Assembly (NCBI GenBank): GCA_963826535.1
Contig: CAWGXL010000011.1
Coordinates: 803,521 to 867,520, forward strand
Direction of reading: 5' to 3'
DNA: 64,000 bases
Source: an uncultured bacterium
GTDB taxonomy: Bacteria; Patescibacteriota; Microgenomatia; Levybacterales; UBA12049
Made by a program: the position numbers and the translations under genes
Notes under the pieces: generated by a model
The model's input: the letters and a program-made list of their open reading frames with translations, nothing else
Told to the model about the DNA's origin: nothing
The model's database searches: none
Part shown: positions 11,460 to 28,346 of the stretch, piece after piece
Layout: each line of letters starts with the position of its first letter
How positions within the stretch are numbered: position 1 is the stretch's first letter

Positions 11460-12635
11460 AATTATAACATAGGTTGTGTTGCCAGGTTTTTAGTGTTGTT
11501 TGTATAAGTTACGAAACATTTTAGACATTTCGTAACTATGGATCATTACGCAAAAGCATACCCAATCTTTAGTAGAATCAAAGGCATTGAGGAGGTGAAA
11601 GAGATGCTCAAAAGCCTTAAACGGTTCTCTAGGGATGAAGTCGCACAAGAACGATTACGCATCATTGAGTTTTATGACGAGTATGGAGAGCGTGCAACGA
11701 AAAAAGCTTTTCGAGTTGGAAGGAATACCCTTTGGGTTTGGAAGCAACGATTAAAAAACAATAAAAACAAACTATCGTCACTTATTCCTGATTCCACAAC
11801 GCCTAAATCCAAAAGACAAATGCAAACTCATCCAAAAGTACTTTCATATATCCGTTACTTGCGGGAGAAACATCCCCGTCTGGGAAAGGAAAAGATAAAA
11901 CCACTTTTAGATCAATATTGCAAGAAAGAAGAGCTAGTAGCAATAGGAGAATCAACTATCGGAAAGGTCATTAAAAGAAATAATTTCTATTTCCAAAAGA
12001 GTGGCAAGATCTATCATAATCCTTCACATAAATTTGCTAAGGCAAAAAGAAAGAAGCGGGACAGGATCAAGAAGCCGCCAAGACCGCAGTCTTTTGGCTA
12101 TATTGAAATGGATACAGTCATTAAATTTGTTGATGGAATAAAAGTATATTTTTTAACAGCCATAGATGTGAAGCTTAAATTTGCATTCAGCCTGCCCTAT
12201 GGCAAACTCAATAGCCGTAATACTGTTGATTTCTTCAAGAAGCTCCATTCAGTATATCCAATAACAATTATCACTGTGCAAACAGACAATGGCTTAGAGT
12301 TTCTTGGAGAATTTGAAGAATACCTTGAAAAACAAAATATACCACATGTTTTTATATATCCCAGATGCTGCAAAATCAACGGCACTATTGAACGGTTCAA
12401 TAGAACCATCCAAGAAGACTTTATTGATGAAAACTTACATATTATTGCAGACCGAAAACTATTCTCTTCCAAATTAATCGAATATTTGTTATTCTACAAT
12501 ACAGAGCGACCACATAAATCCTTGGGATTACAATCCCCATTGGGATATTTATTAAAACATGGAGGTATGTCTAAAAACTCCGTAACTTATACATTGTTTT
12601 GAATTAATAATTCTTTCTGTTATAATTCCCAATAA
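11460..12635 (+). mobile_element. IS481-family insertion sequence (single transposase ORF)
   Basis: DDE integrase-core transposase ORF flanked by imperfect inverted repeats: aattataacatagg at about 11463 and its complement ctgttataatt at about 12621. Confidence 0.55.
11538..12602 (+). CDS. IS481-family DDE transposase (rve integrase core)
   Basis: N-terminal HTH region, then DTV...TDNGLEF...YPRCCKINGTIERFNRTI...YNTERPHKSLG (rve-domain catalytic residues). Confidence 0.8.
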   Translation: MDHYAKAYPIFSRIKGIEEVKEMLKSLKRFSRDEVAQERLRIIEFYDEYGERATKKAFRVGRNTLWVWKQRLKNNKNKLSSLIPDSTTPKSKRQMQTHPKVLSYIRYLREKHPRLGKEKIKPLLDQYCKKEELVAIGESTIGKVIKRNNFYFQKSGKIYHNPSHKFAKAKRKKRDRIKKPPRPQSFGYIEMDTVIKFVDGIKVYFLTAIDVKLKFAFSLPYGKLNSRNTVDFFKKLHSVYPITIITVQTDNGLEFLGEFEEYLEKQNIPHVFIYPRCCKINGTIERFNRTIQEDFIDENLHIIADRKLFSSKLIEYLLFYNTERPHKSLGLQSPLGYLLKHGGMSKNSVTYTLF

Positions 12636-18295: not shown

Positions 18296-18673
18296 ATGAA
18301 TCCAAATAAGGAAAAACCAAAAAATATTAGCGAATATATAAATGCTGCGCCCGAAGAGGCTCAGGATAAACTGCGTGAAATGCTTGCCAGTCTACGTAAA
18401 GCGGCTCCTGGAGCCGAGGAAAGTTTGAAATGGGGACAACCGGCTTTATCTTACGAATGGATACTGTTCCAGTTTGCCGCTTTCAAGCATCATATAAGTT
18501 TATATCCAACACCGTCAGCAGTGAAAGCCTTTGCAAAAGATCTTTCGGGCTTTAAAACATCCAGCAGTACAATTCAGTTTCCATTGGATAAACCGCTGCA
18601 GTTATCTCTAATTCGCAAGATTGCTCTTTTTCGAGTTCGGGAAAGTGAGGAGAAAGGTGTGAAGTGGATGTGA
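18296..18673 (+). CDS. DUF1801 domain protein (second copy in window)
   Basis: 125 aa; same architecture as 4025..4441 (ISEYINAAPEEAQDKLREML...ISLYP). Confidence 0.5.
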   Translation: MNPNKEKPKNISEYINAAPEEAQDKLREMLASLRKAAPGAEESLKWGQPALSYEWILFQFAAFKHHISLYPTPSAVKAFAKDLSGFKTSSSTIQFPLDKPLQLSLIRKIALFRVRESEEKGVKWM

Positions 18674-24388: not shown

Positions 24389-24628
24389 ATGCAGCAGAAG
24401 GTAATACAAATAGGGAATTCGTCAGGAATCACCTTACCGCGATCTATAAGACAGAATGCGGGATTGAAACCTGGAGATAAAGTCGAGGTCAATACAAAGG
24501 GCTCGGATATTATTATTTCTCCTGTTAAGAAGGTAAAAGTGGCGGGTGTAAACGCGAAATTTGTGAAAATGGTTGATGAGTTTATTAATGAACATGAAGA
24601 TGTACTCCGGGAACTCGCCAATAGATGA
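24389..24628 (+). CDS. AbrB/MazE/SpoVT-family antitoxin
   Basis: VIQIGNSSGITLPRSIRQNAGLKPGDKVEV swapped-hairpin motif; GGAGG RBS; overlaps the Doc gene by 4 nt (ATGA). Confidence 0.7.
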   Translation: MQQKVIQIGNSSGITLPRSIRQNAGLKPGDKVEVNTKGSDIIISPVKKVKVAGVNAKFVKMVDEFINEHEDVLRELANR

Positions 24629-25008
24629 AATACCTTACTCCTCAGCGTGTATTGGCGATTCATGATCAATTAATCAAGAGATTCGGAGGGTCATTTGGGT
24701 TGCGAGATTTGGGTCTGCTTGAGTCTGCGGTTGCAAGACCGAGGGCAAGTTATGGAGGGGAAGATCTCTACCGGACAATTTTTGATAAAGCCGCTGCTCT
24801 TCTTCATTCGCTTTTAAAAAATCATATGTTCGTAGATGGGAATAAGCGGACAGCTCTTGCTTCAGCGGGTGTATTTTTGAAATTGAATGGATACAAGCTT
24901 ATAAATAAACATAATGAAGAGTTGGAATTTGCACTTAAAGTGGAAAGTGAAAGTTTGTCTTTGGAGGAAATTGCGGAGTGGCTTGAGAAGAATAGTACTG
25001 AGGTTTGA
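24625..25008 (+). CDS. Doc (death-on-curing) / Fic-fold toxin
   Basis: Doc motif HMFVDGNKRTALASAGVFL (HxFx[DN]GNKR). Confidence 0.75.
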   Translation: MKYLTPQRVLAIHDQLIKRFGGSFGLRDLGLLESAVARPRASYGGEDLYRTIFDKAAALLHSLLKNHMFVDGNKRTALASAGVFLKLNGYKLINKHNEELEFALKVESESLSLEEIAEWLEKNSTEV

Positions 25009-25154
25009 AGCTGGGGGTTTAATGAGGTAGTATGCGTTGCGGCCAGTCCTACTGTCATCACCCAAGTCAAAAGACTAATTTAATCCTCAAATTAATCTTT
25101 TAATACACTTTGCCACTTGACAGCTTCATATACATGTGATATAAAAAGATTATC

Positions 25155-25994
25155 ATGATTAATGAATCCGTACAGTCAGATAAAAAGGAAACTCAAAGCG
25201 TAACTAATGCCTCATCACCTCAGAAAAGAAAGCGGGGAGCATTTCCTCGACTATCTCTTAAAAAGAGTTTGGAACTTTCTAAGGCTATATATAAGCTTGG
25301 ACAAGGTGAGCCAATTAGAAGGTTAAACATTTTTGATAGTTTAGGAAAATCGGCAGAAAGTGGTTCAAGCAGGAGTTTAGTCACTAATTCAAGCGCTTAT
25401 GGTTTAACAAAAGGAGGCTATCAAGCTGATTATTTGGAGCTGACAGAAAAAGGGAAAATGCTAATTTCTATCAATGAAGAAAGGAAGAAATATGAAGTCG
25501 CATACGATATTTTATTTGCCAATGATCTTTTTTCAGGTTTTATTGAATATTGGAAAAATAAACAGCTTCCGTCAGATGAAATAGCTCCAGATTGGTTTGT
25601 GAGAAATTTTCAACTTACAGCCTCAGATGCAAAAGCAGCTTGGGATGTAATAAAAGAGAATATAGACGATTGGAAGCTTACAGAATTGCTTTCGGGTAAA
25701 CAGGTAATTCTTTCTAAAGATATTGCTTCAGAGAGCTTGAAGAAAATATTTGGAAATTTACATGAAGCAGAAATACTTGAGGCAACCAGAGGTATCTCTG
25801 AGACGCTTACAAAAGTAGAAGAGAAAGAACCATCTCTGGTGCAGTCTAATACTATTGAACAAGGGTTAGCTGGATTTGAGAGAAAATATACATATGGCAC
25901 AGCCCGTATGATTTTTCCTGCAAAAATGAAACAAACAGAATTGGATAAGATGAAAATGGCAATTGATGGACTAGTAGAAGTTGTAGAACCATAA
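25155..25994 (+). CDS. Hypothetical protein (orphan) inside island block
   Basis: 279 aa ORF in an AT-rich region; preceded by TTGACA-17nt-TATAAA promoter at about 25108-25140; no recognised domain. Confidence 0.5.
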   Translation: MINESVQSDKKETQSVTNASSPQKRKRGAFPRLSLKKSLELSKAIYKLGQGEPIRRLNIFDSLGKSAESGSSRSLVTNSSAYGLTKGGYQADYLELTEKGKMLISINEERKKYEVAYDILFANDLFSGFIEYWKNKQLPSDEIAPDWFVRNFQLTASDAKAAWDVIKENIDDWKLTELLSGKQVILSKDIASESLKKIFGNLHEAEILEATRGISETLTKVEEKEPSLVQSNTIEQGLAGFERKYTYGTARMIFPAKMKQTELDKMKMAIDGLVEVVEP

Positions 25995-26001
25995 TTAATT
26001 G

Positions 26002-26122
26002 GGGAGCGTATCCAACGAGGCCGAAGGTAAGTAGTGTCCAAAGCTACTACGTCGATGCGATATATTTTGATATCAATATGCTCTGAGGCGTTCCGTCACA
26101 GGTTCGAATCCTGTCCTCCCCA
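26002..26122 (+). ncRNA. tRNA-like element (canonical T-arm + acceptor 3' strand; aberrant or fragmentary body)
   Basis: 3' end acaggTTCGAATcctgt-cctcccc-a gives a perfect T-stem/T-loop and an acceptor strand pairing with 5' ggggagc (1 mismatch). The intervening about 85 nt cannot be folded into D/anticodon arms by eye. Followed by a terminator. Confidence 0.35.
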
Positions 26123-26195
26123 GTGCTAAATCTATTAATAGTTGAAATTTTAGCTTCAATTTGCTATTATGATTGTGATATCAAAATGTACTAGC

Positions 26196-26218
26196 AAACA
26201 ACCTCCTTCTGGAGGTTT
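26196..26218 (+). terminator. Rho-independent terminator
   Basis: cctcc-ttct-ggagg followed by tttttt. Confidence 0.5.
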
Positions 26219-26246
26219 TTTGTGGGTAAAATTGCTATAATCCTAT

Positions 26247-26297
26247 TTATGAACTTATCGGTGGGGATTGTGGGATTGCCGAATGCGTGGGGGAGTT
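26247..26297 (+). pseudogene. Second decayed copy of the ychF 5' end (13 codons, then stop)
   Basis: atgaacttatcggtggggattgtgggattgccgaatgcg encodes [13 protein letters not shown]; own TATAAT box (gctataat) 8 nt upstream. Confidence 0.55.
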
Positions 26298-26356
26298 GAC
26301 TTTCTCTTATAAGATTATTACATGATATTGGAAATGTTCTATGGTATACTACAACT

Positions 26357-26821
26357 ATGGATAAGGTATCAATTTCTGTTCGAAAACTTAGAAGTAATCT
26401 TGAGAAAATTTTAGGCCTTAAAATTTCTATAGCTTGGAAAGGTTTTGGTTCTGCACTTTTTCTAGAATTGGGGAATCTTCATGAAGAATTAGCATGGGAA
26501 AAAGGAGGGAAAATTACTACTGCTAAAGTGGGCGAATGGACTTTATCAAGTGCTGGCGCCTGGAAATTACTTAGAAATGGAAGGATGTTGCTAGATGCTG
26601 AAAAAGCAAAAGAGTCTCAAATTGAAAAAGTGATTAAAGGTTTTGAAAATCTTACTATAAAGTCAGTAGATATCAGTGATAAGCTAGTATTGCGTTTATT
26701 AAATAATGAGATTATTGAGTTTAATAAAGCAGAATATGGGTTTTTCAATTTGTTATTAAATGAAAAGACGAATATAGGTTATGAGAATGATAAGCCGTAT
26801 ATTCAGCAGTTAAGTCTATAA
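26357..26821 (+). CDS. Hypothetical protein
   Basis: 154 aa ORF between the second ychF-fragment copy and ychF; no homology recognised. Confidence 0.4.
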   Translation: MDKVSISVRKLRSNLEKILGLKISIAWKGFGSALFLELGNLHEELAWEKGGKITTAKVGEWTLSSAGAWKLLRNGRMLLDAEKAKESQIEKVIKGFENLTIKSVDISDKLVLRLLNNEIIEFNKAEYGFFNLLLNEKTNIGYENDKPYIQQLSL

Positions 26822-26828
26822 ATAATAT

Positions 26829-27035
26829 TTATCTTCTTTTCGTTTTTTTAACGTCACCAGCTACTTCTAAAAATTCATTACCCTTTTCTAAAAGTTCCCG
26901 GAAAGAAAAGCTATTTGATTCCTTTTGGTAATATTTTCCAAGGTATCGATGGAATTTGTTCTTTTGACTTAGATCGGTAATGCCTAGCTTTTTGCAAATA
27001 CTCTCAAAATCTTTATTTTTATCTCTATTTGTCAT
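26829..27035 (-). CDS. Hypothetical small basic protein
   Basis: 68 aa; convergent with 26357 gene. Confidence 0.35.
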   Translation of the reverse strand: MTNRDKNKDFESICKKLGITDLSQKNKFHRYLGKYYQKESNSFSFRELLEKGNEFLEVAGDVKKTKRR

Positions 27036-27116
27036 AGTGAAACATTTTTAATTTGTCCTCATTATATCAAAGTTTTTTTATTTCGTTTCTTTTTGTAACT
27101 TGGTATAATCAGATGT

Positions 27117-28346
27117 ATGAATCTTTCTGTTGGGATAGTCGGATTACCAAACGTAGGAAAATCTACTTTGTTTAATGCGCTTTTGAAGAAGCAGCAGGCG
27201 TTGGCGGCGAATTATCCGTTTGCTACTATTGAGCCGAATGTGGGTGTGGTGGCGGTGGCGGATTCGCGGTTGGAGAGGTTGGCGGAGATTGTGGCAGAGG
27301 AGATGCGGGGTCCTGTCGCTCCCTCGTCCCGTCCGATGTCCTCGGTCGCAGGCTCCCTGCGGGCACTCGACGGGACACCCTCCGGTCGCGCCACCCCTTC
27401 TTTACCTCCGATAAAGCCGGCGATGATTTCTTTTGTGGATATTGCGGGGCTTGTGAAGGGGGCTTCGGAGGGGGCGGGGTTGGGGAATAAGTTTTTGTCG
27501 CATATTCGGGAGGTTAGGATTATTGCGCATGTTGTGCGGGCTTTTTCAGACGCGGATGTGGTGCGGGAGGGGAGTGTGGATCCTCAGAATGATTATATAA
27601 CTATAGGGACAGAGTTGATTCTTGCGGATTTGCAGACGGTTGAGAAGCAGCGGAAGAGTAAGGCGGTGAAGACTGATGTGGTGAAGAAGTTGGCGATTGA
27701 GAAATTGTATAAGGCATTAAATCAGGGAAATGCTGCGAGGGAAGTTGTATTGACAGATGAAGAAAAAGAATCAATTAGTGATTTATTTTTGTTATCAGGT
27801 AAGGCGGAAGTTATTGTTCTTAATGTTTCGGAGCAGGATTATACAAAAGATAAAATTCCTGAGATTATAAAAAAATATTCTGAATATTTTCAAGGTGGTA
27901 GTTCGTCGACCTCACCCCAACACTCTCCTAATAGGAGAGGGAGTAATTCTATGATTGTCATATGCGCGAAAATTGAGTCGGAACTTTCGGAGTTGTCGGA
28001 GGAGGAACAGAAGGAATATTTAAAAGGATTGGGTCTCACGCAATCGGGATTGGAGCGATTGATTCAAAAGGCTTATGAAACTTTGGGACTTATATCTTTT
28101 TTGACAGCGGGGGAGAAAGAGGTGAGAGCTTGGACTATAAGAAAAGGTATAAGCGCGCAAATGGCGGCGGGGGAGATTCATACGGATTTTATTAAGAAGT
28201 TTATTAAGGCGGAAGTTGTGGGATATGATGACTTTGTTGAAGTAGGCGGGTGGAAGAAGGCAAGGGAGCAAGGGAGGGCGAGGCAAGAGGGAAGGGATTA
28301 TTTGATGAAGGACGGGGATGTAGTGGAGTTTAAAATAGGAACTTAG
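27117..28346 (+). CDS. ychF: Ribosome-binding ATPase YchF (Obg-like GTPase family) with in-frame insertions
   Basis: G1 [18 protein letters not shown]3 [28 protein letters not shown]-terminal TGS domain. 409 aa versus about 363 typical: extra GC-rich segment 27307-27398 and palindromic segment around 27923-27939. Confidence 0.85.
27307..27398. repeat. GC-rich RPE-like element inserted in-frame within ychF
   Basis: Near-identical to 4461-4535 (2 mismatches over about 75 bp). Encodes [34 protein letters not shown] between conserved YchF segments EEMRG and [11 protein letters not shown]; no stop codons. Confidence 0.6.

What the first reader, a model, noticed from the sequence alone, without database searches (positions are those of the whole stretch)
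26002..26218. tRNA-like element with perfect T-arm and acceptor strand but non-canonical body, followed by a terminator
GGGGAGC...ACAGGTTCGAATCCTGT-CCTCCCC-A has the hallmarks of a tRNA 3' half, but 120 nt total and no foldable D/anticodon arms by eye. It lies at the end of island block 1, just before a ychF-fragment boundary. It could be a tRNA 3' fragment left as an att remnant, a tRNA with an insertion, or a tRNA-like structural RNA.
Basis: seen in the sequence. Interest (0 to 1): 0.5.

Follow-up and report, generated by a model that had tools for sequence, protein, structure and literature searches.

The report
tRNA-shaped RNA with antisense partner
This is a conserved gene for a complete tRNA-Trp-shaped RNA that gene finders miss because a 43-base hairpin fills its variable loop; it sits behind a winged-helix gene and ahead of a tiny RNA complementary to that hairpin, and its function is unknown.

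Summary
The T-arm, acceptor pairing and terminator are real. The body is not "non-canonical". Window 26001-26122 folds into a full cloverleaf with a canonical anticodon arm (loop GUCCAAA, anticodon CCA) and a 43-nt hairpin in the variable region. ARAGORN and Rfam miss it. ARAGORN calls tRNA-Trp(cca) once the hairpin is deleted or shortened in silico.

It is not an att remnant. Two more copies exist in unrelated contexts (L001, L042), each at the 3' end of a homologue of the upstream 279-aa gene (57% and 40% protein identity). Between W and L001 the RNA is 89% identical, against 44% at third codon positions. In L042, 5 of 6 acceptor pairs and one anticodon-stem pair changed on both sides.

The terminator belongs to a second unit: a conserved promoter (26142-26170) and a ~47-nt RNA (26177-26223). 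Its 5' end pairs with the top of the extra hairpin (14-17 bp). In L042 both partners changed together.

The upstream protein is BrxA-like. In sister loci the slot behind it holds nuclease genes (NYN, pP_pnuc_1), so a conflict-system cassette is plausible. Expression, charging and function are untested. The case rests on three distinct sequences.

The parts
25117..25145 (+). Promoter of the winged-helix gene: TTGACA (25117-25122), 17-nt spacer, TGA-TATAAA (-10 at 25140-25145). The ATG is only 9 nt after the -10, so the mRNA is leaderless or nearly so.
   Evidence: Read from the sequence. L001 has the same layout: TTGACA-N17-TGATATATT, with the ATG 9 nt later.
25155..25994 (+). 279-aa protein with a BrxA-like two-domain winged-helix N-terminal module (residues ~30-200), a disordered linker and a small C-terminal beta-beta-alpha unit.
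26001..26122 (+). tRNA-Trp(CCA)-shaped RNA. Acceptor 26001-26006 pairs with 26116-26121, plus U26000-A26122. D arm is 26009-26029. Anticodon arm is 26031-26047, with anticodon CCA at 26038-26040. Giant variable arm is 26049-26091, followed by linker 26092-26097. T arm is 26098-26114. No CCA is encoded.
   Evidence: The full-length minimum-free-energy fold closes the acceptor and T arms. All 65 pair cells are paired across three homologues, and 6 pairs changed on both sides. ARAGORN calls tRNA-Trp(cca) after in-silico arm deletion. Identity is 89% against 44% at third codon positions.
26049..26091 (+). Extra hairpin occupying the variable region. Its upper part, 26061-26074 (UAUAUUUUGAUAUC), is the target of the downstream small RNA.
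   Evidence: The arm is 43 nt in W and L001, with a C-G to U-A exchange at 26058:26080. It is 32 nt in L042. The loop nucleotides are mostly unpaired in the ensemble.
26142..26170 (+). Promoter of the small RNA: TTGAAA, 17-nt spacer, TGc-TATTAT (extended -10).
   Evidence: It is the best sigma-70 match in 25000-27200, with 10 of 12 positions plus TG. The hexamers are conserved in L001 (TTGACA/TATTAT) and L042 (TTGACT/TAATAT), while the spacers diverge.
26177..26223 (+). Predicted ~47-nt small RNA. The 5' segment GAUAUCAAAAUGUA (26177-26190) is complementary to the variable arm. Then come a conserved ACUAGCAAA tract, a terminator hairpin at 26200-26217 and a U-run.
   Evidence: It is 91% identical to L001. 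The inverted repeat 26061-26075/26176-26190 is 93% complementary. Duplex energy is -19.1 kcal/mol, reached by 0 of 1000 shuffles. No small ORF is shared with L001: the only candidate, the 23-codon ORF at 26169-26240, has no ATG at the matching place in the L001 sequence.

Best explanation
The locus is a three-part cassette.

(1) A winged-helix (BrxA-like) protein gene, with its own strong promoter and an almost leaderless start.

(2) Directly behind it (7 nt after the stop codon here; overlapping the last 11 codons in L042), a gene for a tRNA-shaped RNA. It has a complete cloverleaf: a covarying acceptor stem, a D arm with GG, a canonical anticodon arm with U33-CCA-A37, and a canonical T arm. 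Its variable loop is replaced by a 32-43-nt hairpin.

(3) A separate promoter-to-terminator unit that makes a ~40-47-nt RNA. Its 5' end base-pairs with the top of that extra hairpin.

Inferred mechanism: the tRNA-shaped RNA is transcribed as the 3' tail of the protein's mRNA, since no terminator lies between them. It is probably cut out by the tRNA-processing enzymes (RNase P at the 5' end; RNase Z and CCA addition at the 3' end, as no CCA is encoded). The small RNA then binds the extra arm. A 14-19-bp duplex would be a substrate for RNase III, or would mask the arm. That would set the level or activity of the tRNA-shaped RNA.

In related loci the position behind this protein gene is filled by nuclease genes, or the protein carries a fused TIR-like domain. 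So the cassette most likely belongs to a family of mobile conflict (defence or toxin-antitoxin-like) modules in which the RNA pair takes the partner's place.

Shown: the sequence anatomy, conservation, covariation, complementarity and linkage. Inferred: transcription, processing, pairing in vivo and any function. Whether the RNA is charged with tryptophan and decodes UGG is open.
For: Cloverleaf: all 65 pair cells are paired in three distinct homologues. Five of 6 acceptor pairs and anticodon-stem pair 26031:26047 changed on both sides. Slid controls reach at most 49% paired. ARAGORN calls tRNA-Trp(cca) for all three once the arm is removed or shortened. In the deletion scan, 85-94% of calls are Trp(cca).

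Selection: the RNA is 89% and the small RNA 91% identical between W and L001. Third codon positions are 44% identical and the spacers 39-50%.

Linkage: the same gene-RNA-small-RNA order occurs in three different neighbourhoods, with protein identity of 57% and 40%.

Small RNA: it has the best promoter in the region and a terminator. The hexamers are conserved while the spacers diverge. Duplex energies are -19.1 and -21.9 kcal/mol, reached by 0 of 1000 shuffles. The complementarity is one-sided and starts at about the predicted transcription start. In L042 the GAUAUCAAAA/UUUUGAUAUC part is missing from both partners, yet a 9-bp match (CUAGUAUAU/AUAUACUAG) remains at the homologous place; that energy is reached by 13 of 1000 shuffles.

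Family context: the partner behind homologous genes is NYN (L002, L003), pP_pnuc_1 (L040, L041, L044) or a fused TIR-like domain (P0007-9; P0173 carries PF10137). The protein has a BrxA-like fold.
Against: There are only three distinct sequences, so the covariation rests on one divergent lineage (L042) plus a few changes in L001. There are no expression data; the promoter and terminator are consensus matches. Position 8 is not U, one extra C (26115) sits between the T and acceptor stems (or 7:66 is a C-C mismatch), and L001 has U at position 37. These depart from working tRNAs. The complementary segments share a near-palindrome (ATTTTGATATCAAAAT), which could instead be a pair of protein operators. 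Pattern scans of GTDB genomes, JGI metagenomes and IMG/VR found no further copies, though the patterns were strict. The defence/TA reading rests on gene neighbourhood alone, and PADLOC has no match.
Confidence: 0.6

Rival explanations
1. It is a working decoding tRNA-Trp (an extra isoacceptor, or even the host's own) that merely tolerates a long variable arm. The small RNA is a regulator of its abundance.
For: The cloverleaf is complete, with U33, anticodon CCA, A37 in 2 of 3 copies and a canonical T loop. Both acceptor registers give a known Trp identity set: G73, or G1-C72 with A73 (PMC5370408). Engineered tRNAs with hairpins in the variable arm remain active in translation (PMC7590224 abstract).
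Against: It travels with an accessory gene in three unrelated contexts rather than in a tRNA or rRNA operon. Position 8 is not U, the D loop is 12-13 nt, there is an extra nucleotide at the T/acceptor junction, position 32 is G and L001 has U37. Rfam tRNA models score far below threshold; the best is tRNA-Sec at 17 bits against a gathering score of 47. tRNA-Trp is normally class I, with a 4-5-nt variable loop (PMC7609411).
Confidence: 0.2
2. The tRNA shape is only a processing or stability signal for the upstream mRNA. It would act like the mascRNA element of MALAT1, or like tRNA punctuation: RNase P cleavage defines the mRNA 3' end. The released RNA would have no role of its own. The downstream complementary segment would modulate that cleavage.
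For: The element starts 7 nt after the stop codon (W, L001) or inside the last 11 codons (L042), and no terminator lies between them. Homologues in L004 and L005 are followed at the same place by other closed, very stable structures, with z-scores of -5.7 and -5.1.
Against: A processing signal needs only an acceptor/T minihelix. Here the anticodon loop (GUCCA) and D region are invariant, and the anticodon stem covaries. The extra arm and its dedicated partner are hard to explain as processing signals alone.
Confidence: 0.12
3. The 'complementarity' is a DNA feature. Two copies of a near-palindromic operator (ATTTTGATATCAAAAT) would be bound by the dimeric winged-helix protein, one inside the RNA gene and one at the downstream promoter. 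There would be no RNA-RNA pairing.
For: the repeat finder reports the two sites as a direct repeat as well (26064-26080 and 26172-26188, 88%), because the core is palindromic. The protein has a MarR/BrxA-like DNA-binding fold. A similar TGTGATATAAAAAG lies in the W gene's own -10 region.
Against: In L001 the match is 19 of 19 as an inverted repeat but only about 16 of 22 as a direct repeat, and it extends on one side only, into the transcribed part. In L042 the palindrome is gone from both sites, yet the complementarity persists. The motif in the gene's own promoter is not conserved in L001.
Confidence: 0.08
4. It is a decayed tRNA fragment or att-site scar left by an integrating element, with no function.
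For: It lies at the edge of an accessory block, next to a duplicated ychF 5' fragment. In L040 a related cassette sits beside a normal tRNA-Gln and a serine recombinase.
Against: Both halves are present and covary. Identity is 89% where third codon positions are 44%. There is no second copy of the 3' end in 64 kb. No integrase is adjacent, and the element has a conserved position relative to one particular gene in three contexts.
Confidence: 0.02

Closest known systems
Class II tRNAs and tRNA-Sec/allo-tRNAs (tRNAs with long variable arms and odd cloverleaves)
   Same: A full cloverleaf with a helical variable arm emerging between the anticodon and T stems. Such RNAs are missed or mis-scored by standard finders. 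Rfam's best, sub-threshold hit is tRNA-Sec.
   Different: The variable region is 38-49 nt, against just over 10 to about 24 nt. The anticodon is CCA, and tRNA-Trp is normally class I. The acceptor/T layout is 7/5 (plus one extra nucleotide), not 8/5, 8/4 or 9/3. The arm has a dedicated antisense partner. No charging data exist.
mascRNA/MALAT1-type tRNA-like 3'-end elements, and tRNAs co-transcribed with mRNAs
   Same: A tRNA-shaped structure directly at the 3' end of a longer transcript. It is expected to be released by RNase P and RNase Z and to receive CCA.
   Different: This is bacterial. It has an intact anticodon arm with a conserved loop, a giant extra arm and an adjacent antisense RNA gene.
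Antisense-RNA control modules and RNA-based toxin-antitoxin systems (type I such as txpA/RatA or par of pAD1, type III ToxIN, type VIII CreTA)
   Same: A short, terminator-ended RNA with a single-stranded 5' end complementary to a loop of a neighbouring RNA. The unit is compact and mobile and lies in an accessory region next to other TA genes (Phd/Doc at 24389-25008).
   Different: The target encodes no toxic peptide, and there are no repeats as in ToxI. The two RNAs lie on the same strand and are complementary through an inverted repeat rather than by overlap. Toxicity has not been shown.
Bacterial Y-RNA-like YrlA and the tmRNA tRNA-like domain
   Same: Non-decoding RNAs that copy the T-arm/acceptor (and D-loop) part of tRNA and work with a dedicated protein.
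   Different: Neither has a normal anticodon arm. No TROVE/Rsr or SmpB gene is found here. ARAGORN's tmRNA mode finds nothing. In YrlA the RNA ends form a Ro-binding stem, not an acceptor stem.
BrxA (BREX) and other winged-helix components of defence systems
   Different: There is no sequence-level match to DUF1819 or any PADLOC model, and no other intact BREX genes are adjacent. The RNA partner is unprecedented for this fold.

Membership tests
Canonical tRNA | 7-bp acceptor stem closing the 5' and 3' ends, plus a discriminator base | tested here: met
   26001-26006 pairs with 26116-26121 in 3 of 3 sequences, and 5 of 6 pairs changed on both sides. The seventh pair is either the conserved U26000-A26122 (then G73, with an extra C26115) or a C7:C66 mismatch (then A73).
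Canonical tRNA | T arm: 5-bp stem with a 7-nt loop UUCRANY and G53-C61 | tested here: met
   ACAGG-UUCGAAU-CCUGU at 26098-26114 is identical in all three copies.
Canonical tRNA | Anticodon arm: 5-bp stem, 7-nt loop, U33, purine 37 | tested here: met
   26031-26035 pairs with 26043-26047; G-C changes to A-U in L042 and U-G to U-A in L001 and L042. The loop is GUCCAAA. L001 has U at position 37, which is an exception.
Canonical tRNA | D arm with U8, A14 and G18G19, and a D loop of 7-11 nt | tested here: inconclusive
   A 4-bp stem UAUC/GGUA (26009-12 with 26026-29) or ARAGORN's 2-3-bp stem is possible. GG and A14-like bases are present. Position 8 is C or G, not U, and the loop is 12-13 nt. All these bases are invariant, so there is no covariation test.
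Canonical tRNA | Variable region of 4-5 nt (class I) or roughly 10-24 nt (class II) | tested here: not met
   The region is 49 nt in W and L001 and 38 nt in L042. Size classes are from PMC7609411.
Canonical tRNA | Detected by ARAGORN, or reaches the Rfam tRNA gathering score | tested here: not met
   ARAGORN finds 0 genes, including intron mode and lowered thresholds. Rfam finds nothing at gathering score, and the best clan hit is 17.1 bits. A normal tRNA-Gln in L040 is found, which serves as a positive control.
Canonical tRNA | Aminoacylated and used by the ribosome | not testable with these tools
   This needs TrpRS charging assays or acid-urea Northern blots.
tmRNA | tRNA-like domain plus an internal tag reading frame and pseudoknots | tested here: not met
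   ARAGORN's tmRNA mode finds none. The RNA is 122 nt and has a normal anticodon arm instead.
tRNA-Sec / allo-tRNA | A 13-bp or 12-bp acceptor branch in 8/5, 9/4, 8/4 or 9/3 layout; UCA or another anticodon with Ser identity | tested here: not met
   The acceptor/T layout is 7/5. The anticodon is CCA. The Rfam tRNA-Sec score is 17.1 against a gathering score of 47.
att-site tRNA remnant | Only the 3' part of a tRNA, repeated at the other island end, with an integrase nearby | tested here: not met
   The cloverleaf is full length. The 3' 25-mer is unique in the window even at 3 mismatches. The nearest ORFs carry no integrase domain.
Type I toxin-antitoxin / antisense pair | A short antisense RNA complementary to its target RNA | tested here: met
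   Complementarity is 14 bp (W), 17-19 bp (L001) and 9 bp (L042). The duplex energies are reached by 0, 0 and 13 of 1000 shuffles respectively.
Type I toxin-antitoxin / antisense pair | The target encodes a small toxic (usually hydrophobic) peptide | tested here: not met
   The small ORFs across 25995-26360 were listed for the window only. None is shared with L001: for example, the 23-codon ORF at 26169 has no ATG at the matching place in the L001 sequence.
Y RNA / YrlA | Ends form a Ro-binding stem; encoded next to rsr (TROVE domain) | tested here: not met
   The ends form an acceptor stem. No TROVE domain occurs among the neighbouring proteins scanned. Rfam gives no hit.

The most novel reading that the evidence does not exclude
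The RNA pair is the effector/antidote module of a mobile conflict system. A tRNA-Trp mimic would act as toxin, decoy or nuclease-resistant spare tRNA. Its activity would be gated by a dedicated antisense RNA that binds an arm added to the tRNA for this purpose. The pair is plugged into the slot that holds NYN or pPIWI-type nucleases in sister cassettes of the same BrxA-like winged-helix protein.
Probability: 0.2. Interest if true: 0.85.

Novelty: new variant of a known kind. Interest (0 to 1): 0.6.

Why it matters
tRNA-shaped RNAs that are not ordinary tRNAs (tmRNA, YrlA, mascRNA, allo-tRNAs) have each revealed new biology. This one combines three features that I did not find described in the literature searches made here:
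- a complete tRNA-Trp-type cloverleaf;
- a variable arm about twice the length of any natural class II arm;
- a neighbouring small RNA built to pair with that arm.

All three are fixed to one protein family whose other members pair with nucleases. If the RNA is charged, this would be a regulated, mobile extra decoder. If it is not, it would be a new kind of tRNA mimic in a conflict system.

The case also shows that standard tRNA finders silently miss such genes. Similar elements may therefore be under-counted in poorly sampled lineages.

Tried and rejected
- ARAGORN and Rfam on the native sequence found nothing usable.
- BLAST of the region, and of the L042 copy, against phage and plasmid collections gave no match.
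- Pattern scans found no further copy. The GTDB genome scan gave 16 hits, all in high-G+C organisms; these were not read and were judged chance matches from the record titles alone. The JGI metagenome scan gave 0 hits. Of the four IMG/VR scans, two returned only ordinary tRNAs or intron-containing tRNAs when read, and two returned nothing. The first patterns required GGGGAG...CTCCCC, which the L042 copy later showed to be variable.
- Protein-based locus searches gave only two distant high-G+C loci in JGI and none in IMG/VR.
- An alternative fold from RNAalifold paired the 5' GGAGCGU with (G/A)CGUUCC. It was rejected because 3 of its 7 pairs break in L042, exactly where the acceptor stem covaries.
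- A possible 3-bp contact between the D loop and the variable arm (26017-19 with 26081-83) shows one compensatory change. It is alignment-dependent and not significant, since 153 of 500 shuffles reach the same score.
- A covariance model built from the three copies found no extra copy in the window or in the 13 loci searched. It found only a normal tRNA-Gln in L040.
- A search for a parent tRNA among annotated phage tRNAs matched only the generic T arm/3' end, across Arg, Met, Gln, Phe, Ser and Tyr genes.
- The organism could not be identified. Every protein tested is alone in its 90% cluster and carries no name.
- Literature searches found no description of such an element.

Full report
Abbreviations: W = the window; L001, L042 and so on = related loci fetched from public assemblies.

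**1. The observation.** The sequence at 26001-26122 reads GGGGAGC ... ACAGG-TTCGAAT-CCTGT-C-CTCCCC-A. The 25-nt T-arm/acceptor string is unique in the window even with 3 mismatches allowed, and none is expected by chance. A hairpin with a T-run lies at 26200-26222. A 16-codon copy of the ychF start ([16 protein letters not shown]) lies at 26249-26299, ahead of the full ychF at 27117-28346. ARAGORN finds no tRNA or tmRNA anywhere in the 64 kb. Rfam finds nothing at gathering score. At a permissive threshold the best hit is tRNA-Sec at 17.1 bits, against a cut-off of 47.

**2. The body is a full cloverleaf.**
- 26031-26035 pairs with 26043-26047 around a 7-nt loop GUCCAAA (U33, CCA, A37), with A26030-U26048 stacked below.
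- UAUC (26009-12) can pair with GGUA (26026-29) around a GG-containing loop.
- The excess length is a single imperfect hairpin (26049-91) plus a 6-nt linker in the variable region.
- The minimum-free-energy fold of the full 122 nt closes the acceptor and T arms.
- I removed that hairpin, or shortened it to class II size, in silico. ARAGORN at default settings then called tRNA-Trp(cca) for this copy and both homologues.
- I also scanned all deletions of 20-55 nt. In that scan, 85-94% of the constructs that were called at all were called Trp(cca), and those deletions lie in the variable arm.
- ARAGORN's drawing uses U26000-A26122 as the first acceptor pair, G26123 as discriminator, and an extra C26115. 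The alternative register has G1-C72, a C7:C66 mismatch and A73. Published Trp identity sets are G73 in bacteria, and A73 with G1-C72 in archaea and some CPR bacteria (PMC5370408). Neither register can be excluded.

**3. It is conserved and linked to one gene.** The ORF that ends 7 nt upstream (25155-25994, 279 aa) has no Pfam, NCBIfam or PADLOC match, and the first search found few close relatives. I fetched the contigs of those relatives.
- L001 (protein 57% identical) carries the same RNA 3 nt after its stop codon. Its neighbourhood is otherwise unrelated: lysE upstream, and a ThrRS gene lacking the TGS domain downstream.
- L042, and the identical L043 (protein 40% identical), carry a more divergent copy that starts inside the last 11 codons of the gene.

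Between W and L001 the gene is 63% identical at the DNA level, and only 44% at third codon positions. The RNA is 89% identical (109 of 122), and the spacer behind it 39%. That is strong purifying selection on the RNA.

Across the three sequences every pair of the cloverleaf is kept (65 of 65 cells). Six pairs changed on both sides:
- five of the six acceptor pairs (GGGGAG/CUCCCC becomes GAAAGC/GCUUUC);
- anticodon-stem pair 26031:26047 (G-C becomes A-U).

Sliding the 3' partners by 1-3 columns gives at most 49% pairing and at most 2 such pairs. An alternative pairing of the 5' end that RNAalifold proposed from two sequences breaks in L042. The att-remnant reading is therefore rejected.

**4. 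A second RNA unit.** Between the tRNA-shaped RNA and the terminator lies the best sigma-70 match of the region: TTGAAA-17-TGcTATTAT at 26142-26170.
- The hexamers are conserved in L001 (TTGACA/TATTAT) and L042 (TTGACT/TAATAT), although the spacers differ.
- From the expected start (about 26177) to the terminator, the sequence is 91% identical to L001.
- No small ORF is shared with L001. The 23-codon ORF at 26169-26240 has no ATG at the matching place in the L001 sequence.

The first 14 nt (GAUAUCAAAAUGUA) are complementary to 26061-26074 at the top of the extra hairpin. In L001 the match is 17-19 nt and perfect. Duplex energies of -19.1 and -21.9 kcal/mol were reached by none of 1000 dinucleotide shuffles.

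In L042 the GAUAUCAAAA/UUUUGAUAUC part is absent from both partners. A 9-bp match (AUAUACUAG with CUAGUAUAU) remains at the homologous position, and 13 of 1000 shuffles reach its energy.

The shared core is a near-palindrome, so the two sites also read as a direct repeat and could be protein operators. However, the match is one-sided, begins at about the predicted start site and survives loss of the palindrome in L042. This favours RNA-RNA pairing. Pairing within one read-through transcript is equally compatible with the data.

**5. The protein and its family.**
- AlphaFold2 gives a confident two-domain winged-helix module for residues 30-200.
- A profile search without a word index shows a sizeable unannotated family: 1446 cluster representatives at E<=1e-3.
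- Where I could read the context, the gene behind it is a NYN RNase (L002, L003), a pP_pnuc_1 nuclease (L040, L041, L044) or an unknown small protein (L039). Longer members carry a fused C-terminal domain, and one such member, P0173, has the TIR-like Pfam family PF10137.
- L002 and L003 are syntenic with the window: the cassette sits directly upstream of ychF, and the YchF proteins of W and L002 are 52% identical.

A conserved nucleic-acid-binding component with interchangeable nuclease partners is the usual signature of defence or toxin-antitoxin modules. In W, L001 and L042 the RNA pair occupies the partner's place. This inference rests on neighbourhood only.

**6. Mechanism (inferred).** The winged-helix gene has a strong promoter whose -10 ends 9 nt before the ATG, in both W and L001. 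No terminator precedes the tRNA-shaped RNA, so the RNA is probably made as the mRNA's 3' tail. RNase P and RNase Z would then cut it out. No CCA is encoded, and a U follows the discriminator region in all three copies. In L042 such processing would remove the end of the coding sequence, which would couple RNA release to loss of the mRNA. The small RNA would bind the extra arm, and a 14-19-bp duplex could recruit RNase III or mask the arm.

What the tRNA-shaped RNA does is unknown. The options are:
- a regulated extra tRNA-Trp;
- a tRNA mimic acting as toxin, decoy or ligand of the winged-helix protein;
- only a processing signal.

I rank the cassette-with-antisense description at about 0.6. 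Within it, no specific function ranks above about 0.2-0.25.

**7. Comparison with known systems and novelty.** The nearest known kinds are:
- long-arm tRNAs (class II, tRNA-Sec, allo-tRNAs);
- tRNA-like 3'-end elements (mascRNA);
- tRNA-like domains of tmRNA and YrlA;
- antisense or RNA-based toxin-antitoxin modules.

The membership rows give the tests in full. In brief:
- It fails as a canonical tRNA on variable-region size and detection scores.
- It fails as tRNA-Sec/allo-tRNA on stem layout.
- It fails as tmRNA or YrlA on architecture.
- It fails as a type I toxin-antitoxin system for lack of a peptide.

Four literature searches found nothing equivalent. I file it as a new variant of a known kind (tRNA-shaped non-standard RNA genes).

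The main weakness is sample size. There are three distinct sequences from poorly sampled organisms, and no expression data. Every host protein tested is alone in its 90% cluster. My early pattern scans assumed an invariant acceptor sequence and so wasted the single genome-wide scan.

Noticed in passing
window 26233-26299 and 27117-28346: The ychF start is present twice. An extended -10 (TGCTATAAT, 26233-41) is followed by a 16-codon ychF 5' fragment ending in a stop (26249-26299). The full ychF begins 0.8 kb later. Compared with the L002 orthologue, the full YchF (409 aa) carries two low-complexity inserts (about residues 61-100 and 258-276).
   Followed up: partly
window 26357-26821: A 154-aa ORF with no Pfam, NCBIfam or PADLOC match sits between the ychF fragment and the full ychF. 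It looks like a second insertion into the same hotspot.
   Followed up: partly
window 24389-25008: A Phd/AbrB-type antitoxin (79 aa, doc_partner) overlaps a Fic/Doc toxin gene (127 aa), immediately upstream of the cassette.
   Followed up: partly
L004 1255-1375; L005 955-1055: Two other close homologues of the 279-aa gene are followed, within about 10 nt of the stop codon, by different closed and very stable structures of ~110-125 nt (z-scores -5.7 and -5.1). These have long 5'/3' closing stems and no T-loop. In L005 a downstream segment (1070-1097) is 71% complementary to 971-998 of the structure. They could be analogous partner RNAs or unrelated MITE-like repeats.
   Followed up: partly
L002 3937-3990; L003 4466-4520: Between the NYN gene and ychF, both loci have GGGAGGCGU...CGUUUCUCCC. 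This is a hairpin that sequesters a perfect Shine-Dalgarno sequence and overlaps a 10-codon ORF ending in VSP*. Its ends and 3' flank (CUCCC-UAGUG) resemble the acceptor strands and flank of the tRNA-shaped RNA. The relation is unclear.
   Followed up: no
L042 861-893; protein P0017; window 25992-26030: In L042 (P0018) and P0017 the last residues of the protein (ESRIQEVEGK / ESRTQVVEGK) are encoded by the 5' half of the tRNA-shaped RNA. In the window the same frame continues after the stop codon as LIGERIQRGRR*. The gene/RNA overlap therefore seems ancestral or recurrent. P0017 probably marks a fourth copy whose DNA I could not fetch.
   Followed up: partly
window 25117-25157; L001 5960-6003: The winged-helix gene appears leaderless. 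A consensus TTGACA-N17-TGA-TATAWW promoter ends 9 nt before the ATG in both genomes, and there is no Shine-Dalgarno sequence.
   Followed up: partly
L001 7162-8811: The gene after the cassette in L001 is a threonyl-tRNA synthetase that lacks the N-terminal TGS domain. It starts at the tRNA_SAD editing domain, and Rfam detects no T-box leader in front of it.
   Followed up: partly
window 26017-26019 with 26081-26083: A possible 3-bp contact between the D loop and the 3' side of the variable arm (GAG/CUC in W, GCG/CGC in L001, GAG/UUC in L042). It shows one compensatory change but is not significant with three sequences.
   Followed up: yes
window 18296-18673 and 11538-12602: The 125-aa ORF gives a weak PglZ-like PADLOC hit (E 0.0012) and may be a BREX remnant. 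A 354-aa ORF carries rve integrase-core domains, so it is an IS transposase. Both lie in the accessory block upstream.
   Followed up: no
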